64,000 nt of DNA from an uncultured Acidobacteriota bacterium (GCA_963746905.1 CAVVCY010000003.1:1031296-1095295), one strand, 5' to 3'; positions 5,845-39,160 are shown, counted from the first letter of the stretch. Notes: generated by a model not told the origin, from the letters alone. Numbers and translations: made by a program.

Positions 5845-6995
5845 ATGCGTATTGGAATCTTGACCGGTGGGGGAGACGTCCCCGGCCTCAACGCCTGCAT
5901 CAAGGCGGTGGTGAATCGAGTCGTAAGCGAGGGCCATCAGGTAGTGGGTGTCCGTCGTGGCTGGGGCGGTCTTGCCGAGACCAATCCCGACGACCCAAAA
6001 ACCGGTGAGGCGAACCTCGTCCCGCTGGACCGGGTGGCGGTGAGGACCATCGACCGCAGCGGGGGCACCTTCCTACACAGCTCGCGGACCAATCCGGCCA
6101 AGGTACGGACCGCCGAGCTGCCTGACGTTTCTCGCGGGCGATTTCAGTGGCGACGGCCCGCACGACATCACACCGCATGTGCTCCGCGTCCTCGAGACCC
6201 ACAAGATCGATGTGCTGATCCCGATCGGTGGTGACGACACCCTCTCCTACGGTCTCCGTCTCCATGAGGAAGGGGTGCCGGTGATCGCCATCCCGAAGAC
6301 GATGGACAATGACGTCCACGGCACCGACTACTGCATCGGTTTCTCCACGTCGGTGACACGTGGCGTTCAGTTCATCCACAGTCTGCGCACGGCGGCCGGG
6401 TCACACGAGCGAATCGCGGTTGTGGAGTTGTTCGGTCGTTACAGCGGAGAGACATCTCTGGTCACGGCCTACCTGTCCGGCGTGGATCGGGCGATCATCT
6501 CCGAGGTCCCCTTCGAGATCGACAAGCTGGCGGCCTTTCTCCAGGAGGACCAGGCGGCCAACCCCTCCAACTACGCGATGGTGACGATCTCCGAAGGGGC
6601 GCGTCTGGTCGAGGGCGATATTCACCTGACCGGCGAGGAGGACGCCTACGGCCACCGCAAACTCGGCGGCATCGGCGCCACCACCGGCGAGCTGCTCAAG
6701 GAGCGGACCGGCGAGGGGATCCTCTATCAGCAGATCGGCTACCTGATGCGGTCGGGTGCGCCCGACTCCCTGGACCTGATGGTTGCCACCAACTACGCGG
6801 TGATGGCCTCCGACCTGGCAATGGAAGGGGCCCACGGGCGAATGGTCGCCCTCAGGGGCGGCACCTATACCGACGTGCCGATCAGGCGTCACCCGCGAGG
6901 GCGTGAAACGGGTCGACGTGGACGAGTTGTACGACGTCGACGCCTACCAGCCCAAGGTCCGCCACGTCCTGGGCAAGCCGATGTTCCTCTACTGA
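5845..6995 (+). CDS. pfkA: 6-phosphofructokinase (PfkA family, ATP/PPi-dependent); frameshifts near 6127 and 6885
   Basis: [47 protein letters not shown]; true end ...VLGKPMFLY* at 6995. Confidence 0.85.
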
Positions 6996-13710: not shown

Positions 13711-13757
13711 CAAGGAGCCAAGGCTACCCATTTCGGCCTGCCTCTACGCTGGTGGCG

Positions 13758-14777
13758 ATGAAGGTGGACTTCTACTTTCCACCCAGTCCTCCGGAGGGGG
13801 CCGGGGCGGCGGCCCGAGAGGCCGCCCTCCTCGGCTACTCGGGCTTCTTCACCGCCGAGACCCAGTACGACCCGTTCCTGCCACTGGTGCTGGCCGGCGC
13901 CGAGGCGCCGGGCCTCGAGCTCGGCACCGCCATCGCAGTTGCGTTCCCTCGTTCTCCGACGGTGGTGGCGATGACAGCGTGGGACCTCGCCAGGCTCTCC
14001 CGGGGAAAGTTCCTTCTGGGGCTGGGGACACAGGTCCGGGCCCATATCGTTCGCCGCTTCGCCTCGACATGGGACCAGCCGGGCCCGCGGTTGCGCGACT
14101 ACATCCTGGCGTTGAAAGCGATCTGGGAGGCGTGGCAAAACTCGACGCCACTCAAGTACGAGGGGGAGTTCTACAACCTCTCTTTGATGACGCCCTTCTT
14201 CGATCCGGGGCCGATCCCCAATCCGGACATCCCGGTATACATCGCCGGCGTCGGCCCCTATCTGTGCAGGCTGGCAGGCGAGTTATGCGACGGGTTTCAC
14301 GTCCATCCGTTTCACACAACCCGATATCTGGACCGGGTGGTGCTCCCTGGGATCACCGAGGGGGCGCGTCGAGCGGGCCGGGCGTTGGGCGATATCGAAC
14401 TGGCGACGACGGTCTTTGTGATGACCGGGGAGAACGACGCTCAAATCGAAGAGGCGATGAGCGGAGTTCGACAACAGATCTCCTTCTATGCCTCGACTCC
14501 CACGTACAAGCCGGTGTTGGAGTCGAATGACTGGGATTTCGGCGACCAGCTGACCGCCATGTCGAAGCGGGGCGAATGGGGGGAGATGGCGGCTGTGGTC
14601 CCTGACGAGGCTGTCCTCGAAGTGGGCGTTGCCGCGCCCATCGACCGGCTCGGGAATGCGATCAGAGAGCGCTATGGGGATCGGGTGCAGCGGATCGGCT
14701 TCTACGCCATCGGGTCGGGTCTGGACAGCGACCGGGAAGCCTTGACCGAGGTGATCAGGCAGATCCAGGGCAAGTAG
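13758..14777 (+). CDS. F420-dependent LLM-class oxidoreductase (TIGR03617-like)
   Basis: AETQYDPFLPL, GTAIAVAFPRSP, LGLGTQVRAHI, QISFYASTPTY. Confidence 0.8.
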   Translation: MKVDFYFPPSPPEGAGAAAREAALLGYSGFFTAETQYDPFLPLVLAGAEAPGLELGTAIAVAFPRSPTVVAMTAWDLARLSRGKFLLGLGTQVRAHIVRRFASTWDQPGPRLRDYILALKAIWEAWQNSTPLKYEGEFYNLSLMTPFFDPGPIPNPDIPVYIAGVGPYLCRLAGELCDGFHVHPFHTTRYLDRVVLPGITEGARRAGRALGDIELATTVFVMTGENDAQIEEAMSGVRQQISFYASTPTYKPVLESNDWDFGDQLTAMSKRGEWGEMAAVVPDEAVLEVGVAAPIDRLGNAIRERYGDRVQRIGFYAIGSGLDSDREALTEVIRQIQGK

Positions 14778-14901
14778 CCCCCCTCCCCGGCTGCGCCGGT
14801 ACTCCCCCCAACGCTCATTTCATTCGCTGGGGTGAGAAATGGTGTCCTCCCCCAGGAGCGAAGCGACGTTGGGGGAGGTGGCCCGGAGGGCCGGAGGGGG
14901 C
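14775..14901. repeat. Pair of REP-like palindromic elements in inverted arrangement
   Basis: 14775-14840 and 14845-14901 share a C-run/hairpin/G-run architecture; the reverse complement of 14775-14840 closely matches 39770-39835. Confidence 0.65.
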
Positions 14902-14918
14902 AACTCCGACGAGAGACG

Positions 14919-16469
14919 CTAGAAGACCATTGCCTTGGTGGTGTCCACCCGGGGGTCGGCTGCAGTCCTCAGACCGTCGGGGCTGACTTCGATGATCGAG
15001 ACCGGGCCCCAACCGGGCTGACGGTCCGGGAGCTCCTCGATCCGGTGGCCGCGACGTCGCAATTCGTCCAGGGTCGATGATGACACCCCTGGCTCGATCG
15101 CGGATCGCGGTGTCGAGTAGGGACCGTGATCCGAGATCGTCCAACGGGGCGCTGACTGGGCCACGTCCAGTTCCTGGCCGGCGATCACCGCCCTGGCGGC
15201 GATCTGGGCTACCACTTGGGGCTGGACCGAGCCGCCCCTGGTCCCGATGAGCCAGCGAGGCCGGACGCCATGAGTCCAGAGCGTGGGTGACAGCGTGTGC
15301 AACGGTCTCCTGTGTGGCAACAGCTCGTTGGGGTGCCCCAGGGTCAGGGTGAATCCCGCTCCTCGATTGTGGAGGAGAAAGCCCCCTCTAGGAACCCCGA
15401 AGGCTGAGCCGGTTCCCCAATAGTTGGAATGGATGATCGAGACCGCCATTTCATCGGCATCGACCACGCAGAGATATGCGGTGCTCGATTCGGAGCCCAT
15501 GCTCTGGGGCCAGATTCCGGTGCGGTCGCGTTGGACGGTTGCCGCGGCCCGCTGCAGTCGGCCATGGTCCAGCAGAAGACTCGCAGGCAACGGTGCGGTG
15601 TCCGGGTCGGCCACGACATCGTCTCGCTCCCAGGCCACCGATCGGAATGCCTCGATGAGGAGATGCAGCCAGTCCGGGTCGTCAGGATCATCTGGAGGGC
15701 CAACCATCTCGAAGACGGCAAGGGAGGCCGGGCCGAGATAGCCCTGGGAGTTCGGAGGGATGGTCCAGGCGGTGTTCCCGGCCACATCGCAAGAGATCGG
15801 TGTCACCCAATCGGCGTGGGATCGGGCGAGGTCTTCATGCGTGATCGTTCCGTTGAGCTCTGAGACGATCTCACGGGCGGGGTCTCCCCGATAGAAAGCG
15901 TCCCGCCCGTCACTCGCCACAGCTTGCAACGTGGTCGCCAACGGAAATCGGTGGACGACGTCACCTGCGGACACCACATCCCCATCGGGATAGAACTCGT
16001 GGACCGCCGGGTTCTTGGAATAGATGGATGCGGTCAAGCGAAAGGCCTTCGCCTGCTCGGTGGAGACTTCGAACCCTTCCTCGGCGAGCCCGATCGCCGG
16101 CTGGAGGCAGTCGGCGAGTCCCAACACTCCAAGCTCTGCGGAGAGGGTTGCCCACCCGTCCACGCAGCCGGGAACGGTCACGGTCAAAGGGTGATCACGC
16201 GGGATCTCGGCTAGGCCGAGCGAGCGCAGCGTCTCAGGATCTGCGTTGGACCCGGCCCGACCAGAGGCGTTTAGAGCTAGTGGGCGTTCCCATCCCGGGC
16301 GATGGATCAGGGCGAAGAGATCGCCGCCGATGCCGCAGGTCTCCGGAGCCACCACTCCTTGCGCTGCGGTAGCCGCGATCGCAGCATCCACTGCATTGCC
16401 TCCGGCAAGGAGAGCCTGTCGTGCAGCCTCAGCCGACAGGTAGTGGGGGGTGGCGACCGCGTGCGTCAG
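14919..16469 (-). CDS. ggt: Gamma-glutamyltransferase family protein
   Basis: AVATPH, GGNAVDAAIAA, CGIGGDLF, PPNSQG, SSTAYLCVVD, LHNRG, HTLSP, AADPR; only a CTG is available at the expected start. Confidence 0.85.
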   Translation of the reverse strand: MTHAVATPHYLSAEAARQALLAGGNAVDAAIAATAAQGVVAPETCGIGGDLFALIHRPGWERPLALNASGRAGSNADPETLRSLGLAEIPRDHPLTVTVPGCVDGWATLSAELGVLGLADCLQPAIGLAEEGFEVSTEQAKAFRLTASIYSKNPAVHEFYPDGDVVSAGDVVHRFPLATTLQAVASDGRDAFYRGDPAREIVSELNGTITHEDLARSHADWVTPISCDVAGNTAWTIPPNSQGYLGPASLAVFEMVGPPDDPDDPDWLHLLIEAFRSVAWERDDVVADPDTAPLPASLLLDHGRLQRAAATVQRDRTGIWPQSMGSESSTAYLCVVDADEMAVSIIHSNYWGTGSAFGVPRGGFLLHNRGAGFTLTLGHPNELLPHRRPLHTLSPTLWTHGVRPRWLIGTRGGSVQPQVVAQIAARAVIAGQELDVAQSAPRWTISDHGPYSTPRSAIEPGVSSSTLDELRRRGHRIEELPDRQPGWGPVSIIEVSPDGLRTAADPRVDTTKAMVF

Positions 16470-17086
16470 GACAGTTTGAGGTCGGGGAGGAAGCGGTTCA
16501 GGGCGTCGAGCACGGCTCTGACCACGGCCCGGCCCTCCTCGTCCTCCACATACGCACAACCGATCAGCATCCGCTCGCTGGCCTCGGTGACCACCACCAC
16601 CTGGGCGACGGCAACCTTCCGATTGCCGAGGAGCGGCACGTCCATGGAGTTGATGGCCAGTGCCGCCTCCTTGTGAATCCCCTGGCGGACCGCATCCAGA
16701 GTGGCATCTGCGATCTGGCGGGCCCGGGTCGAAGCGGCCGCGGCACCGTTGGCGGTGCCGGACAGGATCTCGTTCTCCCAACGAAGGCTCACGGTGACCT
16801 CGGCTCTCGAGCCTTCCAGGGTCTCCGCCACGTCGATCAGGGCCGGGCGGAACCCACCCTCCAGGTCGCCATCAGCTAGCTGCACGACGGAAACGACACG
16901 CCGATCGATCTCCTGGCCATAGAGGGCCTGGCTGAGGGATTGGACGTCGCGCACCAGTTGTTTGGGCGGCTTGTTACGTCGGGCGAGGACATGGATCTCG
17001 GAGATGTGCCCATTTCCGTAGACAACCCGCGCCGCCTCGACTCCATCAATCCGGCCGATCTTCTCTTGAAATGCGACTATGTCCAT
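16466..17086 (-). CDS. Conserved hypothetical protein; C-terminal half resembles the LeuA allosteric domain
   Basis: EIHVLA..KQLVRDVQS..IDRRVVSVVQL N-domain; C-domain AEVTVSL..SGTANG..ATLDAV..GRAVVRAVLDALNR. Confidence 0.6.
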   Translation of the reverse strand: MDIVAFQEKIGRIDGVEAARVVYGNGHISEIHVLARRNKPPKQLVRDVQSLSQALYGQEIDRRVVSVVQLADGDLEGGFRPALIDVAETLEGSRAEVTVSLRWENEILSGTANGAAAASTRARQIADATLDAVRQGIHKEAALAINSMDVPLLGNRKVAVAQVVVVTEASERMLIGCAYVEDEEGRAVVRAVLDALNRFLPDLKLS

Positions 17087-17424
17087 TACCCGGTCAGGGT
17101 ACATCCGGGTGTCATCCCCTGACGGGATAGTCGCTCGTCCCCTTGTCGCGGGAAGCCAACAGGTCTAGATTGCGTGGCGCTGGAGCTATTCATGGGAATG
17201 TGGGGCAACCGAGGTCTTTGACTCGCTTGCCTCGGTCCGTGGCGGGCGAAGTCAGGGGCCTCTTTGACATGTGAAGAGTTCCCGTGAAAGCGGGAACCGG
17301 GTGAGACCGGCGTCAGACGTCGGCCTTGTAAAGCAATTGGACGCCATCTACCCCAGCGGAGCGGAACGTCTGGTCGACAACACAACGTCGGCCAAATACG
17401 AGAACCGAAGGTGAGCGTCACAGC

Positions 17425-17506
17425 ATGAAGGCCCGTTTGGTCCGAATTTCCGCTGCTGCCGCCAGCCTCGCTGCCGTGTTGGCCGCGAACTCGCTGTATC
17501 GGCTGA
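17425..17506 (+). CDS. Candidate small peptide (MKARLVRISAAAASLAAVLAANSL...), read in frame into the HD-GYP gene in this assembly
   Basis: ATG with AAGGTGA SD; basic then Ala/Leu-rich; out-of-frame TGA at 17504-17506; atypical codons follow. Confidence 0.5.
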
Positions 17507-17544
17507 CGAACGACGCCGGCTCACCACACACATCAGGGTCTCCC

Positions 17545-18939
17545 ATGAAACTAAGAAGAAACAGAAAGCTTCGGGGCTGGTTCGGCCGTCTTCGCCCCTC
17601 GGTGCAGCGACGTCTAAGAATCGCTGTGCCCTATTCGGTGATGGGTGTCGTCACCCTGGTGGTCACCTACACCCTTGCCGACCCGCCCCAGTGGCTGATC
17701 TGGCTCCCCTTCACCGCCCTCTTCGTCCTTCTCGAGTTCTTCGCCGTCGAGGTCAACGACCGTCTCCTCCAGTCGTCGGCGGTGATGGTGGCGATGACCG
17801 CCGGGGTCATCTTCGCCATGACCCCCAACTCGGATGCAATGTTCGGCATGGCCCTACTGGGTGGGATGGCCATGTTCACCCCGCTCGATTTCAAAGAGAA
17901 GCGCTGGTTCCAACCCCTGACCAATTTCGGTCAGATGGTGGTGGCGGGGGCGGTGGCCGGGTTCCTCCTCGATGTCAACCTCAGTCATCTCGCCGATCCC
18001 ACTGCGGAGAACTTGCTTCGGGTGGCGGTGGCCTCGGCGTTGGCGGCCCTGGCCTACGCGACAGTCCAAACCGTCCTCATCAGACATGCAGTGAAGACCG
18101 TCTACGGCAAGGACAACCTTCAACCCTGGTCTCAGATGCATGTCCTCTTCCTCGGGCAGGTTGCGATGGGTCTGCTCGGTGGCTTGATCGGGGCCGCCTA
18201 TCTGATCGCCGGTCGAGAGGCCGTCCTGATCCTCACCGTCGGGGTCTATGCCATCGGGCACATGTCGCTCTACGCCTTCTCCCAACTCCGGGAATCTCAC
18301 ATCGGCTCGATCCGGGGCTTTGTGAAGACCCTCGAGGCCAAGGACATGTACACCCGGGGTCACACCGAACGTGTGGCAGTCTTCGCCCAGATGATCGGCG
18401 AGGAGCTCGGATTCACCGGGACCCAGCTGGAGAGGGTGCGATGGGCTGCCCTGATCCATGACCTGGGCAAGTTGGCGGTCCCCACCGAGCTGATCCGCAA
18501 GCGGGGGCGCCTCGATGATGAGGAGTATGCCGAGATGCAGACCCACGCCCATCTGGTCGAGGAGATCCTGGCGGAGGTCGATTTCCTGCAGCCCATGGTC
18601 GAGATCGCCTCGGGGCATCACAGCAACTTCGATGGTTCCGGCTACGGCGGTCGTGGTCACACCGAGGGTCAGACGCCGAGTCTGGAGGCCTGCATCGTCG
18701 GGGTCGCCGACGCCTTCGACGCCATGACTTCGGCACGTTCCTACCGGATGGCGCTGTCCCAGCAATATGCCTTGCGTGAGTTGCGACGTCACTCCGGCGG
18801 GCAGTTCCACCCCGATGTGGTCGATGCCTTCGAGAAGGGGCTCATCAAGACCGGTCGCAACTGGGGCGCCCCCCATGTGAACGACGAGGAGATGGCCCGT
18901 CGTCTCGCCGAAGAGCCGGAGTTGACCCTCCGTGGCTAA
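17545..18939 (+). CDS. Membrane-sensor (MASE9-like) HD-GYP phosphodiesterase
   Basis: About 7 TM segments, then EAKDMYTRGHTERV, LIHDLGK, HHSNFDGSGYG, VADAFDAMTSARSYR, GGQFHP. Confidence 0.85.
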   Translation: MKLRRNRKLRGWFGRLRPSVQRRLRIAVPYSVMGVVTLVVTYTLADPPQWLIWLPFTALFVLLEFFAVEVNDRLLQSSAVMVAMTAGVIFAMTPNSDAMFGMALLGGMAMFTPLDFKEKRWFQPLTNFGQMVVAGAVAGFLLDVNLSHLADPTAENLLRVAVASALAALAYATVQTVLIRHAVKTVYGKDNLQPWSQMHVLFLGQVAMGLLGGLIGAAYLIAGREAVLILTVGVYAIGHMSLYAFSQLRESHIGSIRGFVKTLEAKDMYTRGHTERVAVFAQMIGEELGFTGTQLERVRWAALIHDLGKLAVPTELIRKRGRLDDEEYAEMQTHAHLVEEILAEVDFLQPMVEIASGHHSNFDGSGYGGRGHTEGQTPSLEACIVGVADAFDAMTSARSYRMALSQQYALRELRRHSGGQFHPDVVDAFEKGLIKTGRNWGAPHVNDEEMARRLAEEPELTLRG

Positions 18940-20181
18940 CTGGCATCCCCGCGCCGTGGCCGTTGTCTCCTGGTTGTTCCCCTTTGGCGCGGGCGGAGTC
19001 GGGCTCTATGCGGCGAGTCAGGCGTCGACCGACCCCTACAGCATCGCGGTCGGGGTCACCGCCCTGGTGATCGGCTCTCTGGTCGGAGTGGCGACGTCCA
19101 GCTCGGGCAATCGGTTCACCACCGGGCTCGCCGTGGCCGCAGCGATCCCGTTCGTGTTCACCAACCAGGAGACCGGATGGGTCGATCTCGCGGGTCGATC
19201 GCTGTTTACGGCATCGGATTGGCGGTGGTCTGGGTCCTAAGCCTGGCTCGTGGCGAGAAGCACATCGACCTTCTTCCGACACTCATTCGTCGTTTTGCGG
19301 GTTATGTGACCTACGCCACTGTCTACACGGCGATGCGGGTTGGGGTATTTGCAGATGTCCTGGCGGCTGGCTGGACCTGGTCCCATTCGGGATCGCCCTC
19401 GTGGCCTGGATCGCCGTCGAGGTCTTGTTACGGGCGGCTCTAGTCCTCAAGCCAGGCGAGTTGTCACGGACCTACCTTGCGAGATCGGCCCTGTACGACC
19501 TGAACGTCTTCCTGGGGCTCACCTTGACCGGAGCGCTGTTCGGTGAGCTGTTTCCGGAGCTGCGGCTGGTGGGCGCTTCCCATCGCTCTGCTCCCGTACT
19601 CATTCGCTCACTCCGCCTTCAAGAGGTTCCAGAAGACCAAGACCACCTACAAGCAGACCATCCGGGCCCTGGCCCGGATCCCGGAGGTATCTGGTCTCGG
19701 AGTCGATGGGCACGCAGACCGCACTACCGAGCTGGCGTCGGCGGTCGCCAAGGAGATGGGAATGGGACCGGCCCAGGTCGAGGACGTCGAGTACGCCGGC
19801 CTGATGCACGATATCGGTCGGGTCAGCCTCAACGAGCCACAGATCATTCGGATGGGCTACACCAACGACGACATCGCTCGATGGAGCGCGGAGATCATTG
19901 CCGAGTCGCCCTATCTGGACCGGGTCGCCGAGCACGTGAGGCGACAGTACGAGTCCTATCGGAGGCCGGGCGAGCAGACCGACCCTGACGTGTCGGTTGT
20001 CTCCAGGATCATCAAGGTCACCGCCGCCTATGACTGGCAGGTGTACCAGCAGGGCCTCTCACCACTTCAGGCTCTGGAGAATCTCCACACCGGCGCCGCT
20101 TACGAATACGACCCTGAAGTGGTCGCCTCGGTACGCAGGATCCTCGAGGCCAGAGGGGTCCTCAGCCCGGCGAGAGTGTGA
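18932..20181 (+). CDS. Second membrane HD-GYP-like protein, catalytically degenerate; three frameshifts
   Basis: TM region split over ORFs 18932/19177/19401, then GHADRT, LMHDIG, with HHE/GYP replaced by RQYESY and VAD by TAAYD; EYDPEVV. Confidence 0.7.
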
Positions 20182-20199
20182 ACGAAGGCGCCCAACGCC

Positions 20200-20790
20200 T
20201 CAGGGCTTGGTGGCGGAGCCCGCCTGAGCATGCGCGCCGCGCTTGAACCAACGTCGTGGCCTCCGCAACTCGTGCTCCAGGAAGCGGCCGAGCCCAACGG
20301 CCAGGAAGACGTCACCGAGACTGATCACCTGACCGATGCTGGCGACTCGCAATGGGATCACGTCGGCGAAGAACGTCAGTCGCGACGACTCGTCGAGCAT
20401 CACGTGCTTGAAGGAGTCGCTGAGATCCGGTGACGAAACAGCGAAGCCGCTTGCCACCTCGGCTGCCCCGGCGAGTACTGGCATCCCGCCGTTGAGTGCA
20501 ATCACCGTGAAGTTCATGAGGACGCCAAGCCCGGCGAGCCACATTCCCGACTTCTGCCGGTTGAGGACGACCATGATCATCAAGAGGCCGAAAGAGACGA
20601 GCACCATGGCCAGGGCGACTCCGTGTGCCCAGTCGGTGTCGGGTAGCCATTCGGTGGCGAGCTGGAGAGCGAAGCCAAGCGGCAGCAGCCACCAGGCTTT
20701 CAGCTCGATGTCTCCCAGGTTGGTGAGACGGCCTCCCCGGAGGACGGCGATGGCGAGTGAAAGAAAGAGGACAATCGCCATCCATAACAT
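20200..20790 (-). CDS. DUF5317-like integral membrane protein
   Basis: LRGGRL..LG, G..MNFTVIALNGGMPV, KHV, LTFFADVIP, SLGDVFL motifs. Confidence 0.75.
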   Translation of the reverse strand: MLWMAIVLFLSLAIAVLRGGRLTNLGDIELKAWWLLPLGFALQLATEWLPDTDWAHGVALAMVLVSFGLLMIMVVLNRQKSGMWLAGLGVLMNFTVIALNGGMPVLAGAAEVASGFAVSSPDLSDSFKHVMLDESSRLTFFADVIPLRVASIGQVISLGDVFLAVGLGRFLEHELRRPRRWFKRGAHAQAGSATKP

Positions 20791-20839
20791 GTGAGCGACG
20801 GTAATACCCGGGCAGACATTGACAAGAAAGCGAAATTCG

Positions 20840-21607
20840 ATGGTGGACTACGAGGCGTCCCAGGGTCGAGCGACCATCACAATCAACGACCCGGAGCGTC
20901 GCAACCCGATCTCAGTGGAGACCATGGCCGGTCTTCTCGATGCGACAGGGCGCGCAGTCGACGACGGTTCGGTGAAGGTCATCGTCTTCACCGGCGCCGG
21001 CGACGAAGTGTTTAGCGCGGGTGGCGACCTGTCAGGTTCCTTTGTCGACGACGCAGTCGGCCTCCATCGGAAACGGGGTGTGTTTGCCGACCTGTTCCGC
21101 CTGATGTGGAGGTCAGGGAAGCCGACCGTTGCCCGGGTCAATGGGCATGCCTTCGGCGGTGGCTTCGGACTCGCCGTCGCCTGCGACATCACCGTCTGCG
21201 TCGAAGACGCCAGGTTGGGAACCACCGAGGTCACTGTTGGCCTATGGCCGATGATGATCACCGCGGTCCTGGCCCGCTCGATGCCGCGGAAGGCGCTTCT
21301 CGAGATGATGCTCACTGGACGCACGATCGACGCACTCGAGGCGCATCGTCTGGGGGCTGTCTCCAGGGTCGTCACACGCCCTGATCTCGACTCCGCCGTC
21401 GATGACATCGTGAGCCGACTGCAGTCGCTGAGCCCGGCCACCTTGCTGTTGGGGCGTGACATCTTCCACGGAGTCTCAGACCTTGGTGTCGATGCGGCGT
21501 TGGACCGTCTTCAGCTCGGCCTTACCGAGGTGGCCATGACCGAGGACGCCAGGGAGGGCATCACGGCGTTCCTCGAGAAGCGCGACCCACACTGGCCCGG
21601 GGGCTGA
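20840..21607 (+). CDS. Enoyl-CoA hydratase/isomerase family protein
   Basis: FSAGGDL, ARVNGHAFGGGFGLAVACD, EDAREGITAFLEKRDP. Confidence 0.88.
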   Translation: MVDYEASQGRATITINDPERRNPISVETMAGLLDATGRAVDDGSVKVIVFTGAGDEVFSAGGDLSGSFVDDAVGLHRKRGVFADLFRLMWRSGKPTVARVNGHAFGGGFGLAVACDITVCVEDARLGTTEVTVGLWPMMITAVLARSMPRKALLEMMLTGRTIDALEAHRLGAVSRVVTRPDLDSAVDDIVSRLQSLSPATLLLGRDIFHGVSDLGVDAALDRLQLGLTEVAMTEDAREGITAFLEKRDPHWPGG

Positions 21608-21652
21608 GACCGCGACATCTGGTTGGAACCACCGCCATTTAGCCTCTCCGGC

Positions 21653-22336
21653 ATGCGCCGCAACATCCAGATCCTCGGATGGGCCCTGATCTGGACCGGG
21701 CTCTTCATCTTTGGCTATCTGGGATGGCAGCTGGTCGTCACCGACATCGTCAACGAGCGGGTGCAGGCCGAGGCCACTGATGATCTGCACGACTTTTTCG
21801 AAGTCGAACGTGTGCACCTTCCCCCGGTGCAGGCGGTGGAGAGTGAGGAGGGTGCCCCGCTCCAATTCCATCCCGAACAGGAACCCGATGAGAACACCAG
21901 TTTCGCCCGACTCCGGGTCCCCAAGTTCGGTCTCGATGTCGTGGTGTTCGAAGGGGTGAGCCGCGATGCCCTGGCTCAGGGCCCGGGCCATATGCCGGGC
22001 ACGCCGTTGCCCGGTCAGCCGGGAAATGCGGTGATCTCCGGGCATCGAACCACGCACGGTCGGCCCTTCTTCAACTTCGACCGGCTTCAGCCAGGAGACC
22101 GCATCGAGGTGGAGACGTCGATCGGCACCCATGTCTATCAAGTCAGGGAGAGCCTCATCGTGGCTCCGACCGATGTCTGGGTTGCCGACAACAAGGCCGG
22201 CGCCTGGCTGACGCTCACGACTTGCAACCCCAAGTTCTCGGCCCGGGAGCGTCTGGTCGTATTTGCCGAAATGGTGGAGGGGCCGAATCTGGCGTTTATC
22301 AAGGACCTCGAGGATCGTCCGGTCGGGGTCTCCTAG
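21653..22336 (+). CDS. Sortase (class E-like)
   Basis: N-terminal TM, GPGHMPGT, ISGHRTTHG, LTLTTCNPKFSARERLVV. Confidence 0.88.
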   Translation: MRRNIQILGWALIWTGLFIFGYLGWQLVVTDIVNERVQAEATDDLHDFFEVERVHLPPVQAVESEEGAPLQFHPEQEPDENTSFARLRVPKFGLDVVVFEGVSRDALAQGPGHMPGTPLPGQPGNAVISGHRTTHGRPFFNFDRLQPGDRIEVETSIGTHVYQVRESLIVAPTDVWVADNKAGAWLTLTTCNPKFSARERLVVFAEMVEGPNLAFIKDLEDRPVGVS

Positions 22337-22866
22337 CCGGTCATTTCTTCGAGTGCCTGTTGGTCCACGAGCCCGTTGACGATGCTCGAGACCGTTCCGT
22401 CCGGCTCGATGATGAATGTCGCCGGCAGCCCCACGGTCTGGTAGGCGTCACGAAACTCCTTGTTCCCGAATGCGAGCGGGTATGAAGGCGACATCTCCTC
22501 GGCGAACGCTTCCGAGTCGGCCCGGGCGTCCTCGACGGCGACCCCGAGCACGGCAACGTCAGGGTGATTCGATGCGAAGTTGGATATGTCGGGGATCTCG
22601 GTGCGACAAGGGAGGCACCATGACGCCCAGAGGTTGAGCACCAGGGTCCGCCCATCCTCGTCGAGGTGGTTTTCAAGTGTGAAGGTCCCACCGTCCAGAA
22701 GTTCCAATGTGAAATCCGGTGCCTGAGCCCCGACGGAGGCCACGGCCGTGTCATCGCTCAGCAGCCATGCAATGCCGAGCCCGGCAATCACGACGCCGAC
22801 GAATACTCCAGTGAGCAGGAGAGAGCGCCTGGGGAGCGGGTCAGGGACATCCGCGGGATCAGTCAG
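22333..22866 (-). CDS. TlpA/ResA-like membrane thioredoxin
   Basis: TM helix, [24 protein letters not shown]; start uncertain (CTG 22866 after GGAGG, or ATG 22887). Confidence 0.82.
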
Positions 22867-25573
22867 AGGCCATCCTCCGCAAGACATAGTGCAGGATCCC
22901 GCCGTTGCGCAAGTACTCGACCTCGATGTCGGTGTCCACTCTGGCGATCATCGGGAAACTCCTGACCGATCCATCAGCTGCGGTCGCACTCACGATGATT
23001 TCCTGCCGCGGGTGCAGGTCGTCGGTGAGCGGGATGTCGTAGGTCTCGGAGCCATCGAGACCCAGGCTGGCGGCGTCTCCTCCATCGGCAAAGACCAGAG
23101 GGAGCACCCCCATCATCACCAGGTTGGACCGATGAATCCGCTCAAACGACCTGGCGAGGACCGCGTTGACTCCGAGCAAGAACGGGCCCTTGGCTGCCCA
23201 ATCTCGCGACGATCCCATTCCGTAGTCAGACCCGCCGATGACAATCAGGGGGATCCCGCTCTCCTGGTAATGCATCGAAGCGTCGTAGATCGATTTCACC
23301 ACACCATCGAGGAAGTCGGTGGTCCAGCCGCCCTCGGTCCCCGGCGCCAGTTGGTTCTTGACCCGGATATTGGCAAAGGTGCCTCTGGTCATGACCCGGT
23401 CGTTCCCACGCCTGGACCCGTAGGAGTTGAACATCGGGGGCTGTACCCCTTGAGAGATCAAGTACTTCCCGGCGGGGGAGTCGATGGCGATCGATCCCGC
23501 CGGGCTGATGTGGTCGGTGGTGACGGAGTCGCCGAGCAAGGCCAGTGCCCGGGCCCCGTTGATCGGGGCAAGTGGCGTGAGGTGGGGGGTCAGCGTGGTG
23601 AAGAAGGGGGGCTCCTGAACGTATGTCGATTCACCATCCCAGGGATAGAGGTCGGACTCCGGAGTCGTGATCGCACGCCATTCGTCCGAGCCTGCGAACA
23701 CGTCGGAGTACTTGTCGAGAAACTGGCTTTGGTGGACGTGCGCCGAGACGATCTCGGCGATCTCCTCCTGGCTCGGCCAGATGTCGCGGAGGAACACGTC
23801 GTTGCCTTCCTGATCGACTCCGAGAGGCTCGGTGATCGGGTCCCACGCCACGGTCCCCGCCAGGGCATAGGCCACCACCAGGGGAGGGGAAGCCAGGTAA
23901 TTGGCTCGCACATCCGGGGAGATGCGACCTTCGAAGTTCCTGTTGCCCGAGAGCACGGATGCCGTGACCAGATCGCCGGCATGGATCGCCTCGGAGATCG
24001 GTCCCGATAGTGGGCCCGAGTTGCCGATGCAGGTGGTGCACCCGTAACCCACCACATAGAACCCGAGCGCCTCGAGGTCAGGGAGCAATCCGGAGCTGGT
24101 GAGGTACTCGGTGACCACCTTGGACCCCGGGGCCAGCGAAGTCTTGACCCAGGGCATGCGGGTCAACCCACGCTCCCGGGCCTTGCGGGCGACCAGGCCC
24201 GCTCCCACCATGACATCGGGGTTCGAGGTATTCGTGCACGACGTGATCGCGGCGATCACCACGTCCCCGTCACTCAGATTGAAATGCTCGCCATCCATGT
24301 GGACATCGACGCTGGCCTGGGCCTCCAGAGACCTGCCCTGGGACGACTGACCGCCTTCGTCTTCCCAACTGACAACGGTGGCTGTCTTGGCCCCGCCATT
24401 CTTCCCAAAGAGGGTGGTGAGATCGGCAGTCCATTGCGCCCTCATCGCAGAGAGGGCCACCCGATCCTGTGGTCGCTTGGGCCCGGCCAAAGACGGCTCC
24501 ACCGTGGACATGTCGAGGGCGAGGTCCGCCGAGTAGTTGATCTGGTGACTGTCGTCCCGCCACATGCCCTGGGCCTTGTGGTACTGCTCGACGGTGTCGA
24601 TCAGCTTGTCATCGCGACCGGTCAGCCTGAGGTACTTCAGGGTCTGCTCGTCGACCGGGAAGAAGCCGACCGTGGCGCCATATTCCGGCGCCATATTGGC
24701 GATCGTTGCCCTGTTGGCTACCGGCATGTCCGCAAGCCCCGGGCCGTGGAATTCGACGAACTTGTCCACCACCCCGTGTTCGCGGAGCATCTCGGTCACC
24801 CGGAGAACCAGGTCGGTGGCGGTCGATCCCTCGGGGAGTCTTCCGGTCAGCCGGAACCCGACAACCTCGGGCAGGAGCATGTAGATCGGCTGGCCAACCA
24901 TGGCAGCCTCGGCCTCGATGCCGCCTACTCCCCAGCCGACCACCCCGAGCCCGTTGATCATCGTGGTGTGGCTGTCCGTTCCGACGAGGCTGTCCGGATA
25001 GAGCTGATCCCCGTCGTCCCAGACCACTTTGGCCAGGTATTCGAGGTTGACCTGATGGACGATGCCCGTGGCGGGTGGGACCACGCGGAAGTTGGCGAAT
25101 GCCGACTGGCCCCACTTGAGGAACTCATATCGCTCCTGGTTTCGCTCGAACTCCTTGCGAGAGTTGATGGTGAGGGCGTCCGATCGAGCGAAGGCGTCGA
25201 CCTGGACCGAGTGATCCACCACGAGGTCGGCGGGGATGAGGGGGTTGACCTTCTGCGCGGCGCCCTCATCGCCGGTCAGACGCACTATCGCCGAGCGCAT
25301 CGCGGCGAGATCGACCACCGCCGGCACCCCGGTGAAATCCTGGAGTATCACCCGACCCGGTACGAACGGGATCTCTTGCTCGCCCACTTTCCGGGCGTCA
25401 TAAGAGGCGATCCTGCGGACATCCGCTTCGGTCACACTCTTGCCGTCGAGGTTCCGCAGGGCGGACTCGAGAAGGACCTTGATCGAATAGGGGAGCCGGT
25501 TGGCGCCTTCGATGTCGTCGATTCGGGCTATCTGGCGGGGCCCGAGCGCCGTTTCGAGGGTGAACCCGTTCAT
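22859..25573 (-). CDS. acnA: Aconitate hydratase A
   Basis: [67 protein letters not shown]. Confidence 0.97.
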
Positions 25574-37080: not shown

Positions 37081-38046
37081 TCATCCAGCTTGGGGGTTTG
37101 CGGGGAGGACCGGTGGGATCGGCTCGGGCGCCGGGGGCGCCGGGCGACGGCGCTTCCTCCACCAGCGGTAGAGGAGATAGAGGGCCAGCAGCGGGATCCC
37201 CAGGGTGAGAATCAGCAGGGGAAGGGTGTAGAGGACGAAGTTGATGCCCCACTCCCCGACATCCTGCAGCCCGCTCACCAGGTTGCGCAACGACTCGCGG
37301 GCGACCTCGAGAGGCGCCCAGGTGTCTTCGACAATCGGCACCGCGGCCGGCGTCGGGGCCAGGTAGACCGACACGGTCGCCAAAGTCACCACATCGTTGA
37401 GGTAGTTCAGCTGCCCTTGCATCTGCTCGATCTCGCCACGGACGCGGGAGACCTCGTTGTAAACCTCGAGAAGCTTGGCGGGGTCGGCGTCCGGCTGCTT
37501 GCGGACTTCCGAGAGCAGCGCCACCAACTCTGTCTCCAGAGCCTGAGAGTTGTGGAGCCGTGCCTCCAGGTCGACGAATTGGGCGGTGACGTCCTCAGCG
37601 TTCTGGGACTCGGTCAGCACCACCTCGACCGAGCCCTTGATCGCGTCGAGGACGTCGGGCAACTGGTCGGCCGGTACCCGGAGAACCATGTTCACGACTG
37701 GCTGGTCGGTCTCGCTGTCGGTCGGCTCGACCGTGGCGCTGGCGACAAAGCCGCCGACCTCCTTGACCAGGTCGACGATGTGATCGAAGGCCGTCCTGGT
37801 GTTGTCGGCCTGCAATTCGAGGCTGGCATTGCGGATCACCTGGCGGTCGGTGGCCACTACGTCGTCGTAGGACAGCTCATCAGGCGACGCGCTTGAGGCG
37901 GCCACCGTGGTCATCGATTCGGGGACCGCACCGCTCCCGCCTTCGAGACCGTCGCTGACCTCGCTGAAGGTTGTGGCGGCTTCGTCGCCGCCGCAAGCGG
38001 CGAGCGCCAGTCCGAGTGCCAGGATCAATGTGAGTTTCTTCATCAT
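37081..38046 (-). CDS. DUF4349-like lipoprotein
   Basis: Lipobox LAAC, QVIRNASL, LRVP, EDVT.QFVDLEARL, coiled coil, C-terminal TM. Confidence 0.8.
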   Translation of the reverse strand: MMKKLTLILALGLALAACGGDEAATTFSEVSDGLEGGSGAVPESMTTVAASSASPDELSYDDVVATDRQVIRNASLELQADNTRTAFDHIVDLVKEVGGFVASATVEPTDSETDQPVVNMVLRVPADQLPDVLDAIKGSVEVVLTESQNAEDVTAQFVDLEARLHNSQALETELVALLSEVRKQPDADPAKLLEVYNEVSRVRGEIEQMQGQLNYLNDVVTLATVSVYLAPTPAAVPIVEDTWAPLEVARESLRNLVSGLQDVGEWGINFVLYTLPLLILTLGIPLLALYLLYRWWRKRRRPAPPAPEPIPPVLPANPQAG

Positions 38047-38126
38047 TCTTCCTCTCGTGTCACCCAGGAGGGGTTTGGCCGTTGGACGCAAACCGTGTGT
38101 CAGCGGTTCCCGGGTACCGTGTGCCT

Positions 38127-39160
38127 ATGAGTGGCGGCCCACTACGCGTCCTCGAGATCTACGGTGCTCCCGGGGATTTCGGGCGCTTCCACGGCACCGA
38201 GTGCGCCGACCTGATCCGGGCGTATGCGAGTGATCGGCTTGGGTTGTCAGGCGACTCGACGTGGGCCGGCCGGACTGCTGATGCTGATGTCATCCTCTCC
38301 CTGGCAGAAGCCACGCTGCCTTTCCATCGCTCGTACTCGGCCGATCTGTATGAAGAGATGGATGCCCTCTCGGCAGCAGCTGGCATCACTCCGGCCCAAG
38401 CGGTGGTGGTCGGGGGCTTCACCGATCTCGTCGACGTGGTCAGGGCTCACCTCGGGGATGCGCCGACCGAAGACAACTGCACTGCAGTGATCAACCCGGT
38501 GGAAAAGGTCCTCGCCCAGACCTGGGACATGCACGCTTCGGCCGGTGACTATGTCGTGTTCCTGAAACTCGATCCCATCGCCGGCCCAGCACTGGTCGTG
38601 CAGACGACCGCCGGGTGTCTGGGTCAAATAGGGATGAACGAGGCGGGCATCGCCATCGGCATCAACAATCTCACCGCATTCGGGAAACCCGGTGTGACCT
38701 GGCCTTTCGTGGTGCGCAAGGTCCTCCAACAGACCGACCTGGATCGACGCGATCGATGCGGTTCTCGAAGCCGACCTGGCCGGTGGGCACAACTTCTTGC
38801 TGATGGGGCCCGATGGCGTCGGGGTCAATATCGAGGCGATGCCCGGCTCGACCCATGTCCAGCGCGTCGAACGACGAGCCTTTCGTGCACACCAACCACT
38901 GCCTCGAACCGACAACCAGGGGTGAGGAGTCGGTGCGGGCCCCGGAAAGCGTTGCCAGCAGCCTGACCCGTCTCGAGAGGGGGACGACTCTGGCCACCGA
39001 TCTCGACGCCTTCTTCGCCGAGCCCTCGATTTCTCGACGGGCCGGCGCCCCCCACGAGACGGCAACCTGTGGCGCGGTGATCATGCACCCGGCGGAGCGT
39101 CGGATGGAGTCGGTGTGGGGCGTGCCAGGCGACCACCCATGGGAGACCTTCCAACTGTGA
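38127..39160 (+). CDS. C45 family Ntn-hydrolase (acyl-CoA:6-APA acyltransferase-like); frameshifts near 38745 and 38865
   Basis: DNCT (N-terminal nucleophile Cys), AQTWD, GMNEAGIAIGINNL, HNF, HTNH. Confidence 0.78.

What the first reader, a model, noticed from the sequence alone, without database searches (positions are those of the whole stretch)
16466..20790. Candidate peptide-signalling system wired to c-di-GMP: tiny peptide + two membrane HD-GYPs + DUF5317
Seen: structured leader, tiny basic/hydrophobic ORF, near-canonical membrane HD-GYP, degenerate membrane HD-GYP, convergent DUF5317-like multi-TM protein and a divergent conserved protein. Established: HD-GYP domains hydrolyse c-di-GMP; Agr-type systems combine a small propeptide, a membrane processing enzyme and a membrane receptor; DUF5317 has no assigned function. 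Inference: an Agr-analogous quorum-sensing system where DUF5317 matures or exports the peptide and the receptor output is second-messenger hydrolysis rather than phosphorylation. My recollection that DUF5317 recurs beside HD-GYP genes and tiny ORFs needs a formal check.
Basis: partly seen in the sequence, partly recalled or inferred. Interest (0 to 1): 0.8.

Follow-up and report, generated by a model that had tools for sequence, protein, structure and literature searches.

The report
Tiny peptide beside membrane c-di-GMP sensors
This locus is one copy (damaged in this assembly) of a widespread but undescribed bacterial gene set: a 24-30-residue membrane peptide behind a structured RNA leader, membrane sensor enzymes that degrade c-di-GMP, and an unknown membrane protein, which makes the unknown input of these sensors testable.

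Summary
All listed parts exist at 16466-20790 in this Acidimicrobiia MAG. The "tiny ORF" (ATG 17425) is not free-standing here. An 8-nt gap, absent from every relative, runs it in frame into HD-GYP1. HD-GYP2 is cut by three 1-nt indels.

Relatives carry a 29-codon ORF, MKARLVRILAAAASLAAVIAAGSASSRIG, under protein-level selection. It follows a 155-nt leader RNA that covaries and is absent from Rfam.

Across Actinomycetota, 47 of 60 DUF5317 loci lie within 5 kb of a MASE9-type membrane sensor fused to HD-GYP, histidine kinase or GGDEF-EAL, and at least 31 of 60 carry the peptide. Peptide tails fall into classes that match the output type. In genomes without DUF5317 the peptide still precedes MASE9-HD-GYP, often as identical tandem copies. 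So peptide plus MASE9 is the core and DUF5317 is accessory.

The active plus degenerate HD-GYP pair matches Streptomyces HdgA/HdgB.

The Agr-like mechanism is not shown, and no Agr defining feature is met. I favour a membrane-resident peptide partner or ligand of MASE9. The module is undescribed in the searched literature.

The parts
16466..17104 (-). P212: conserved cytoplasmic 212-aa protein with no family assignment. It travels with the HD-GYP class of the module.
   Evidence: No Pfam or NCBIfam hit. Syntenic in 16 of 20 order-level loci and in 19 of 60 phylum-level DUF5317 loci, always with HD-GYP. AF2 pLDDT 89 with three beta-beta-beta-alpha repeats; best PDB match is the LeuA regulatory domain, E=8e-6, TMq 0.39.
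17262..17417 (+). Structured leader RNA 5' of the peptide ORF. Elements: TTGACA block 17264-17269; hairpin 17278-17297; AGCGGAGCGGA 17355-17365; hairpin 17372-17393 with loop AACACAAC; GGTGA Shine-Dalgarno 17410-17414.
   Evidence: Model R1 scores 134 bits here and has no other hit in the window. There are 70 hits in Acidimicrobiia and weaker hits just 5' of the peptide in other families. Covariation: 89.5% of cells paired against 77.2% in shuffles, and 148 double-change cells against 48.6, with 0 of 500 shuffles reaching the observed values. No Rfam match.
17425..17544 (+). Remnant or variant of the micropeptide gene 'pep': MKARLVRISAAAASLAAVLAANS..., without its own stop. The family stop, TGA 17504-17506, is one base out of frame.
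   Evidence: It is the only peptide-HMM hit in the genome. There is an 8-nt gap after 17493 relative to L034, L040, L111 and seven other relatives, which encode MKARLVRILAAAASLAAVIAAGSASSRIG*.
17545..18939 (+). HD-GYP1: divergent MASE9-type membrane domain (about 250 aa) plus a near-canonical HD-GYP domain (HHSNFDGSGYG).
   Evidence: HD_5 E=3.3e-31. Aligns to V-cGAP3 (5z7c, E=4e-31) and PmGH (4mcw, E=6.5e-25) with the metal-ligand His and Asp residues present. The start at M41 is shared with relatives. A membrane-domain HMM links it to Pfam MASE9-positive proteins.
18932..20181 (+). HD-GYP2: same membrane domain plus a degenerate HD-GYP (H and HD kept; HxH, HHE and GYP lost). In this assembly it is split by 1-nt indels near 19197, 19361 and 19564.
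   Evidence: It is intact at 414-422 aa in relatives, and the pair 'one full plus one degenerate' occurs in 71 of 83 two-paralogue loci.
20200..20790 (-). DUF5317: membrane protein with five predicted helices. The conserved N93, N100-G-G-M-P104, D143 and S157-x-G-D160 cluster is inferred to face the outer side of the membrane.
   Evidence: PF17248 E=2.8e-31. Invariant columns from 28 sequences. AF2 pLDDT 86.7, pTM 0.79. No PDB fold match at E<=0.001 and no PDB sequence match.

Best explanation
The locus is the Acidimicrobiia version of a conserved, undescribed signalling module. Its core is a 24-30-residue, signal-peptide-like single-helix peptide (pep) plus a MASE9-type membrane sensor domain.

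In this window the sensor domain is carried by two tandem HD-GYP proteins. One is catalytically equipped and one is degenerate, and they probably act as a heterodimer like Streptomyces HdgA/HdgB.

Proposed mechanism (inferred):
- pep inserts with its N-terminus in the cytoplasm and its C-terminus outside.
- Its helix and its short, class-specific C-terminal tail contact the MASE9 domain in the outer leaflet, as a resident subunit or tethered ligand.
- This sets c-di-GMP phosphodiesterase activity.
- DUF5317, whose conserved Asn/Asp cluster is placed on the same side of the membrane, is an accessory factor. It may be a partner, or it may trim or turn over pep.
- P212 is a cytoplasmic accessory of the HD-GYP class.
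- A conserved structured leader RNA controls expression of pep and probably of the operon.

Shown: the gene linkage, protein-level selection on pep, the three tail classes that match output type, covariation in the leader, and the motif status of the two HD-GYPs.

Inferred: topology, physical contact, and the direction of regulation.

In this assembly pep and HD-GYP2 are disrupted, most likely by long-read indel errors.
For: - The block GGT/P212/leader/pep/HD-GYP1/HD-GYP2/DUF5317 is syntenic in 20 of 20 order-level loci.
- pep is present in 15 of 16 order-level leaders as an exact 29-codon ORF. Synonymous to non-synonymous codon differences are 499/549 in frame, against 100/934 and 75/934 in the shifted frames.
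- Phylum-level loci: 47 of 60 DUF5317 loci have a MASE9-like sensor within 5 kb, and 29 (plus 2) of 60 have pep. The genome background is one pep hit in 2.09 Mb, at this site.
- Partners carry Pfam MASE9 fused to HD-GYP, HisKA_3 kinase, GAF-HisKA kinase or GGDEF-EAL. pep tails sort with partner class..AGA.ARW or AGSASSRIG with HD-GYP..GGAH[FW][KR]x with HisKA_3..GA..KWG with GAF kinase or GGDEF-EAL.
- pep persists before MASE9-HD-GYP in DUF5317-less genomes, in 1-3 identical copies.
- The sequence of the peptide's hydrophobic core is itself conserved (S/T-L-x-A motif) and the tails end in basic plus aromatic residues. This suits a stable membrane helix.
- Galperin and Chou inferred that MASE9 binds its ligand within the membrane and reported no known ligand.
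- The full plus degenerate pairing occurs in 71 of 83 loci, as in HdgA/HdgB, which are membrane-bound.
- Leader covariation.
- A PFK gene is also frameshifted in the window.
Against: - There is no direct evidence for any physical interaction, for insertion of pep, or for PDE regulation.
- One Acidimicrobiia clade (18 of 51 loci that hold the P212-to-HD-GYP region) has a 25-aa non-hydrophobic ORF or a broken ORF at the pep site, yet keeps the leader, both HD-GYPs and DUF5317. So a membrane-helix pep is not indispensable.
- The conserved small-residue motif (A-G-S/G-A) before the tail also fits a signal-peptidase site, and tandem identical copies fit a secreted product.
- The window's own MASE9-like domain does not reach Pfam's MASE9 threshold.
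- The window's pep is disrupted as assembled.
Confidence: 0.5

Rival explanations
1. Agr-like secreted signal. pep is exported and cleaved after the A-G-S/G-A motif by signal peptidase or DUF5317. The released 3-6-residue tail (SSRIG, QARW, HFRW, NNKWG ...) acts as an autoinducer sensed by MASE9, and the output is c-di-GMP hydrolysis.
For: - pep has a signal-peptide layout: a basic N-region, a hydrophobic core of 14-18 residues, then small residues at -3 and -1.
- The tails are class-specific and conserved.
- Identical tandem copies occur.
- DUF5317 is fused to MFS exporters in L056 and L063.
- DUF5317's invariant Asp and Asn residues are placed on the outer side.
- There is a weak AgrD-model hit, E=0.1.
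Against: - pep occurs without DUF5317 in many genomes.
- The AgrD hit is below cut-off (12.8 bits against 19). There is no AgrB and no conserved Cys.
- DUF5317 matches no peptidase or transporter fold in the PDB.
- The peptide is nearly invariant within the genus (8 of 9 SSRIG), so there is no pherotype-like variation.
- The sequence of the hydrophobic core is conserved, which is unusual for a disposable signal peptide.
- MASE9 has only short, poorly conserved outer loops.
Confidence: 0.2
2. Regulatory upstream ORF. What matters is translation of the short ORF inside a riboswitch-like or protein-bound leader, which controls expression of the downstream HD-GYP genes. The peptide product has no function of its own.
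For: - The leader RNA is more conserved than the flanking genes and covaries.
- It is retained in the clade where the ORF has lost its hydrophobic core or is broken, while the start region and the ..RIG-TGA end are kept.
- A sequence after the stop (GCTCACC) is complementary to the Shine-Dalgarno region GGTGAGC in the genus.
Against: - Amino-acid-level conservation of a membrane-helix peptide holds across many families with different DNA.
- pep lies on the opposite strand from its kinase partner in several loci (L054, L055, L088).
- There are tandem identical copies and tail classes that track the sensor class.
- No terminator-like site was found between pep and HD-GYP1.
Confidence: 0.15
3. 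The genes are neighbours only by shared descent in a conserved core-genome block and have no functional link.
For: The block also includes unrelated housekeeping genes (GGT, enoyl-CoA hydratase, sortase, thioredoxin-like, aconitase) that are equally syntenic within the order.
Against: Outside the order the flanking housekeeping genes change. pep, the MASE9 sensor, DUF5317 and P212 stay together in rearranged orders and orientations, including single-strand operons (L052, L053, L057, L061, L110). Across genomes, 67 of 93 with MASE9 also have DUF5317, against 54 of 208 without MASE9.
Confidence: 0.03

Closest known systems
Streptomyces venezuelae HdgA (vnz24090) / HdgB (vnz24095)
   Same: Adjacent genes in an actinobacterium, probably one operon. 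Each encodes a multi-helix membrane domain plus HD-GYP, and the second is degenerate and lacks GYP. Both were shown to be membrane-bound (PMC6205966). HdgA is cited as the only studied MASE9 protein. The window has the same full plus degenerate pairing, as do 71 of 83 related loci.
   Different: Neither paper mentions a peptide, DUF5317, P212 or a leader RNA. The mutants had no phenotype and the input is unknown. I could not inspect the Streptomyces locus. No genome above 6.6 Mb in my sample of 301 had a DUF5317 or Pfam MASE9 hit, so Streptomyces may lack DUF5317.
MASE9-HD-GYP proteins (Thermotoga maritima TM1467 type; Pfam PF20972)
   Same: An N-terminal polytopic membrane sensor domain is fused to HD-GYP. 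The domain is promiscuous with GGDEF-EAL, and its ligand is unknown and predicted to bind within the membrane. Module partners in other actinobacterial families score above the MASE9 gathering threshold.
   Different: The window's own domain is too divergent for the Pfam model (no hit at E<=10) and is linked only through intermediate profiles. I also find MASE9 on HisKA_3 and GAF-HisKA kinases. The peptide, DUF5317 and the leader are not part of the published description.
Staphylococcal Agr system (AgrD, AgrB, AgrC)
   Same: A small hydrophobic precursor gene sits next to a polytopic membrane protein of uncertain enzymology and a polytopic membrane receptor. Peptide variants match receptor variants.
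   Different: There is no AgrB (PF04647) and no AgrD signature. There is no Cys for a thiolactone and no C-terminal recognition tail. The receptor output here is HD-GYP. The membrane protein (DUF5317) is dispensable in many genomes.
MgrB-PhoQ, SafA-PhoQ and similar small membrane-protein regulators of sensors
   Same: A very small single-pass membrane protein is genetically coupled to a membrane sensor and would act on it within or at the membrane.
   Different: There is no sequence relationship. pep is shorter (24-30 aa) and its extracytoplasmic part is only 3-6 residues. It is encoded directly upstream of the sensor behind a structured leader. It is conserved across a phylum and occurs with three output classes.

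Membership tests
Agr-type quorum sensing | AgrD-family propeptide (TIGR04223) | tested here: not met
   The genus consensus peptide scores 12.8 bits against a cut-off of 19 (E=0.1). A second variant gives no hit.
Agr-type quorum sensing | AgrB membrane peptidase | tested here: not met
   The only membrane partner is PF17248 DUF5317. It has no sequence or fold match to any PDB peptidase.
Agr-type quorum sensing | Conserved Cys (or Ser) in the peptide for a thiolactone or lactone ring | tested here: not met
   No Cys is conserved in the peptide family. Most members have none.
Agr-type quorum sensing | Secreted, density-dependent signal sensed by the receptor | not testable with these tools
   Needs LC-MS and reporter assays.
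HD-GYP c-di-GMP phosphodiesterase (PF13487) | HD_5 domain with H, HD, HxH, HH(E) and D metal ligands and the GYP motif | tested here: met
   HD-GYP1 scores E=3.3e-31. It aligns to 5z7c and 4mcw with H, HD, HxH, HH and D present, but HHE is HHS and GYP is GYG. Activity was not tested.
HD-GYP c-di-GMP phosphodiesterase (PF13487) | The same motifs in HD-GYP2 | tested here: not met
   Only the first His and the HD motif are kept. HxH, HHE and GYP are absent. This is a degenerate, probably non-catalytic paralogue, as in HdgB.
MASE9 (PF20972) | Match to the Pfam model above the gathering score | tested here: inconclusive
   The window's domain gives no hit at E<=10. Its family HMM hits proteins that score 29-35 bits against MASE9, where the cut-off is 24.3.
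DUF5317 (PF17248) | Match above the gathering score | tested here: met
   109 bits against a cut-off of 25.
Small membrane-protein regulators of sensors (MgrB/SafA kind) | Single-pass small membrane protein genetically coupled to a membrane sensor | tested here: met
   The peptide has a basic N-terminus, a hydrophobic core of 14-18 residues and a short tail. It lies directly upstream of the MASE9 gene in dozens of loci. In the window itself the ORF is disrupted.
Small membrane-protein regulators of sensors (MgrB/SafA kind) | Physical binding to the sensor and modulation of it | not testable with these tools
   No multimer prediction or experiment was available.
Any Rfam family (for the leader) | Covariance-model match | tested here: not met
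   No match at E<=1 in window 14000-24000, and none over the leaders of six other loci at E<=0.1.

The most novel reading that the evidence does not exclude
pep is the self-made cognate ligand or subunit of the MASE9 sensor domain, which would be the first natural input known for any MASE9 protein. DUF5317 is a new outer-leaflet peptidase or chaperone that tunes pep. The 155-nt leader is a new riboswitch or protein-bound RNA (possibly bound by P212, or sensing c-di-GMP or pGpG) that closes a feedback loop. Together these would form a new peptide-based input layer for c-di-GMP and two-component signalling across several phyla.
Probability: 0.2. Interest if true: 0.9.

Novelty: new variant of a known kind. 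Interest (0 to 1): 0.7.

Why it matters
MASE-type membrane domains are among the most common inputs of c-di-GMP enzymes and histidine kinases, and almost none has a known signal. A conserved, mostly unannotated micropeptide encoded directly in front of MASE9 proteins of three output classes gives a concrete hypothesis for that input. The peptide tails sort with the output class.

The work also gives DUF5317 and the P212 family a functional context. It adds a covarying leader RNA that is not in Rfam. It offers an explanation for why hdgA/hdgB mutants in Streptomyces showed no phenotype: the activating signal may be missing.

For this genome specifically, the apparent fusion and pseudogene are probably assembly artefacts and should not be over-read.

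Tried and rejected
- Reading 17425-17544 as a separate ORF: rejected, because there is no stop in frame.
- Real pseudogenisation of HD-GYP2: considered at first because the neighbouring genes are intact. Downgraded after PFK (5845-6992) and an AAT-like gene (38016-39157) turned out to be frameshifted too, and after the close relatives proved to be long-read 'MFD' MAGs.
- A functional natural fusion of pep to HD-GYP1: unlikely. It would place the very basic stretch KLRRNRKLRGWFGRLR outside the membrane, and no relative has the fusion.
- Known riboswitches, including c-di-GMP classes, for the leader: none found.
- DUF5317 as a known peptidase or transporter fold: no PDB match.
- P212 by sequence against the PDB: nothing significant.
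- The search for related loci with the 28-sequence DUF5317 alignment: no usable conserved stretch. The 8-sequence alignment returned only Acidimicrobiia, so other phyla were not examined here.
- The look-up of encoding contigs for the 504-aa and 464-aa HD-GYP1: not on record.
- A global MAFFT plus RNAalifold run on 62 leaders was too gappy to be useful. It was replaced by a covariance model.
- A sigma-70 promoter or intrinsic terminator in 16900-17700: none.

Full report
**What is in the window**

The region 16466-20790 of this 63% G+C window holds five features on the two strands.

| Feature | Coordinates | Evidence |
|---|---|---|
| P212, a 212-aa protein with no Pfam or NCBIfam family | 16466-17104 (-) | |
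| Non-coding stretch of about 320 nt | 17105-17424 | |
| ORF 17425-18939, whose C-terminal half is an HD-GYP domain | (+) | HD_5 E=3.3e-31 |
| Second HD-GYP region, of which only 19543-20181 is an open HD_5-positive piece | 18932-20181 (+) | E=3.6e-12 |
| DUF5317 | 20200-20790 (-) | PF17248, 109 bits |

Flanking genes are gamma-glutamyltranspeptidase, enoyl-CoA hydratase, sortase, a thioredoxin-like protein and aconitase. The genome is a 2.09-Mb, 7-contig MAG. Named homologues place it in Acidimicrobiia.

**The tiny ORF and the state of this assembly**

The ORF that starts at ATG 17425 (MKARLVRISAAAASLAAVLAANS...) has no stop. It runs in frame into HD-GYP1, whose conserved start is ATG 17545.

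In 15 of 16 order-level relatives the same position holds an exact 29-codon ORF. In the genus it reads MKARLVRILAAAASLAAVIAAGSASSRIG*. The window differs by an 8-nt gap after 17493, plus several substitutions, from all ten close relatives examined. This puts the family stop (TGA 17504-17506) out of frame.

HD-GYP2 is read in one frame in all 20 relatives. In the window it is split into four pieces by 1-nt indels near 19197, 19361 and 19564.

I first took this as decay confined to the module. However, comparison with short-read relatives over about 43 kb shows other conserved genes are split too:
- A phosphofructokinase gene (5845-6992) is split into three frames.
- An AAT-like gene (38016-39157) is split as well.

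The closest genomes are few-contig 'MFD' MAGs. Several few-contig relatives show similar frameshifts in other genes. Assembly indel error is therefore the most likely cause for HD-GYP2. The pep gap may be a real 9-nt in-frame deletion plus one error, or a real disruption.

**The peptide is a real, selected gene family**

Among 11 distinct order-level ORF sequences, pairwise codon differences are 499 synonymous to 549 non-synonymous in frame. In the two shifted frames the figures are 100/934 and 75/934. A GGTGA Shine-Dalgarno sequence precedes the start.

A peptide HMM finds one hit in all 30,088 six-frame ORFs of the 2.09-Mb genome, at 17425. The many hits near DUF5317 and MASE9 genes elsewhere are therefore far above background.

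The family is 24-30 aa long and has:
- one to three basic residues at the N-terminus;
- a hydrophobic core of 14-18 residues with a recurrent S/T-L-x-A motif;
- a small-residue motif (A-G-S/G-A);
- a tail of 3-6 residues, usually ending in a basic plus an aromatic or aliphatic residue.

It is almost never annotated. Two of eight exact sequences are on record, as JGI 'hypothetical protein'. Pfam has no model for it. NCBIfam gives only a sub-threshold AgrD hit.

**The module across Actinomycetota**

- DUF5317 occurs in 37 of 41 relatives and in 121 of 301 genomes sampled across the phylum.
- In 60 phylum-level DUF5317 loci with about 5 kb on each side, 47 have a protein with the same membrane domain as HD-GYP1. 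Twenty have an HD-GYP domain, 19 have P212 and 29 have pep, plus two more found by pattern.
- The iterated membrane-domain HMM is specific: in the window's genome it hits only the two HD-GYPs.
- Pfam names this domain MASE9 in the partners. It is fused to HD-GYP, to HisKA_3 kinases, to GAF-HisKA kinases and to GGDEF-EAL.
- The window's own copy is too divergent for the Pfam model.
- Gene order and strand vary. There are single-strand operons P212-pep-HDGYP-HDGYP-DUF5317 in L052, L053 and L110. In other loci pep is divergent from a kinase, as in L054. This argues for functional linkage rather than inherited synteny.
- At genome level, 67 of 93 MASE9-positive genomes also have DUF5317, against 54 of 208 others. 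By hand the odds ratio is about 7.

Peptide tails fall into classes that follow the partner.

| Partner class | Tail pattern |
|---|---|
| HD-GYP | ...AGA.ARW or AGSASSRIG |
| HisKA_3 kinase | ...GGAH[FW][KR]x |
| GAF-HisKA kinase or GGDEF-EAL | ...GA..KWG |

**DUF5317 is accessory, not obligatory**

Twenty-six MASE9-positive genomes lack DUF5317. In 20 such loci, 12 still have pep directly before MASE9-HD-GYP. It is often present as two or three identical tandem copies, MKKLMRVLIALGSLVGICSTVRW. This contradicts DUF5317 as the required maturation or export enzyme.

DUF5317 itself:
- It is predicted with confidence (pLDDT 86.7) as five helices plus a small beta region, and has no PDB fold match.
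- Its invariant residues are N77, G89, N93, N100-G-G-M-P104, D143, S157, G159 and D160.
- By the positive-inside rule, most of the polar ones sit toward the outer leaflet. This is the same side as pep's small-residue motif and tail. This placement is inference.
- It is fused to MFS transporters in L056 and L063.

**The HD-GYP pair**

HD-GYP1 aligns to V-cGAP3 (5z7c) and PmGH (4mcw) with the His and Asp metal ligands present, but HHE is HHS and GYP is GYG. HD-GYP2 keeps only the first His and the HD motif.

One full plus one degenerate paralogue is the rule, in 71 of 83 two-paralogue loci. It matches S. venezuelae hdgA/hdgB. Those genes are adjacent, their products are membrane-bound, the second is degenerate and the mutants have no phenotype (PMC6205966).

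Galperin and Chou defined MASE9 from TM1467. They noted its promiscuity and proposed ligand binding within the membrane, with no ligand known (bioRxiv 10.1101/2021.11.05.467447). No paper in the library mentions DUF5317.

**The leader RNA**

The 5' region is more conserved than the neighbouring genes. A covariance model built from 24 Acidimicrobiia leaders (153 positions, 22 pairs) behaves as follows:
- It hits the window only at 17262-17417 (134 bits).
- It hits 70 sites in 100 Acidimicrobiia loci.
- It hits, more weakly, sites just 5' of pep in other families: L101 (E=2e-6), L086, L212 and L081.

On 58 distinct sequences:

| Measure | Observed | Shuffled |
|---|---|---|
| Cells forming a standard pair | 89.5% | 77.2% |
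| Cells changed on both sides | 148 | 48.6 |
| Covariation score | 0.402 | 0.183 |

None of 500 shuffles reached the observed values. Controls with the partner slid by 1-3 columns scored 0.03-0.12. Two hairpins (window 17278-17297 and 17372-17393) are 95% paired with many compensatory types.

The alignment was fitted to the model, which favours the structure. An independent RNAalifold run on 14 sequences already showed the first hairpin, with 6 of 8 pairs compensated.

An AGCGGAGCGGA block about 70 nt before the start codon is shared by the HD-GYP/P212 class across families. Rfam has no match.

**A complication**

In one Acidimicrobiia clade (18 of 51 loci that contain the P212-to-HD-GYP interval) the ORF at the pep site behaves differently:
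- In most it encodes a 25-aa non-hydrophobic peptide, M[KQ]A.LAR..VASL..VL[AG]G.RIG.
- In three loci it is broken.
- The leader, both HD-GYPs and DUF5317 are all kept.

This keeps alive a reading in which translation of the short ORF within the leader matters more than its product. It also shows that pep is evolutionarily labile in this family.

**Verdict**

The proposed gene linkage is strongly supported. The Agr-like mechanism is neither shown nor favoured.

My preferred reading (about 0.5) is a membrane-resident micropeptide partner or ligand of MASE9 that sets the activity of an HdgA/HdgB-like HD-GYP pair. DUF5317 and P212 would be accessories, and a new structured leader would be the expression control.

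Rivals:
- secreted tail peptide, about 0.2;
- regulatory upstream ORF, about 0.15;
- chance synteny, about 0.03.

Earlier AI notes from this scan describe the same module in at least nine other genomes. I treated them as leads only.

Noticed in passing
window 5845-6992 and 38016-39157: A phosphofructokinase gene (PF00365 in relatives) is split into three reading frames, and an AAT-like gene (PF03417) into two or three, relative to short-read relatives. This points to residual indel errors in this long-read-like assembly.
   Followed up: partly
L126, L132, L137, L139, L148, L153, L161 (intact); L165, L167, L182 (broken): A sister Acidimicrobiia clade has, at the pep site, a 25-aa non-hydrophobic ORF (for example MKAFLARNRRCVASLKTVLAGVRIG) that keeps only the MKA.., ..ASL.. 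and ..G.RIG* parts. The leader RNA, both HD-GYPs and DUF5317 are retained.
   Followed up: partly
L197 3644-3829, L198 4925-5222, L200, L204, L061 3192-3480, L058 5731-6203: Two or three identical tandem copies of the micropeptide gene lie before a single MASE9 gene, mostly in small genomes that lack DUF5317. This suggests a need for high peptide dosage.
   Followed up: no
L056 2986-5580 (-), L063 4920-6722 (+): DUF5317 is fused N-terminally to an MFS transporter (MFS_1/MFS_3). In L056 HEAT repeats are fused as well. L056 sits next to a pep-like ORF and a MASE9-HisKA kinase.
   Followed up: partly
window 16466-17104 (-): P212 is predicted as three beta-beta-beta-alpha repeats. The best PDB match is the LeuA regulatory domain, with weaker matches to dsRBD and PUR-repeat proteins. 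It co-occurs only with the HD-GYP class and with the AGCGGAGCGGA leader motif, so it may bind a small ligand or the leader RNA.
   Followed up: partly
genome contig C2 364051-364629 (+), outside the window: A stand-alone 192-aa HD-GYP-like protein is the only other strong HD-GYP hit in this genome.
   Followed up: no
L054, L055, L088, L090, L092, L098, L100, L103 (upstream of pep): The peptides of the HisKA_3-kinase class have their own conserved upstream element: CCCCCGATAGT, followed by a GTCCCCC...GGGGG hairpin. It differs from the HD-GYP-class leader.
   Followed up: no
window 13752-25573: The whole block (luciferase-like oxidoreductase ORF, GGT, P212, the module, enoyl-CoA hydratase, sortase, thioredoxin-like protein, aconitase) is collinear in all 20 order-level relatives.
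   Followed up: partly
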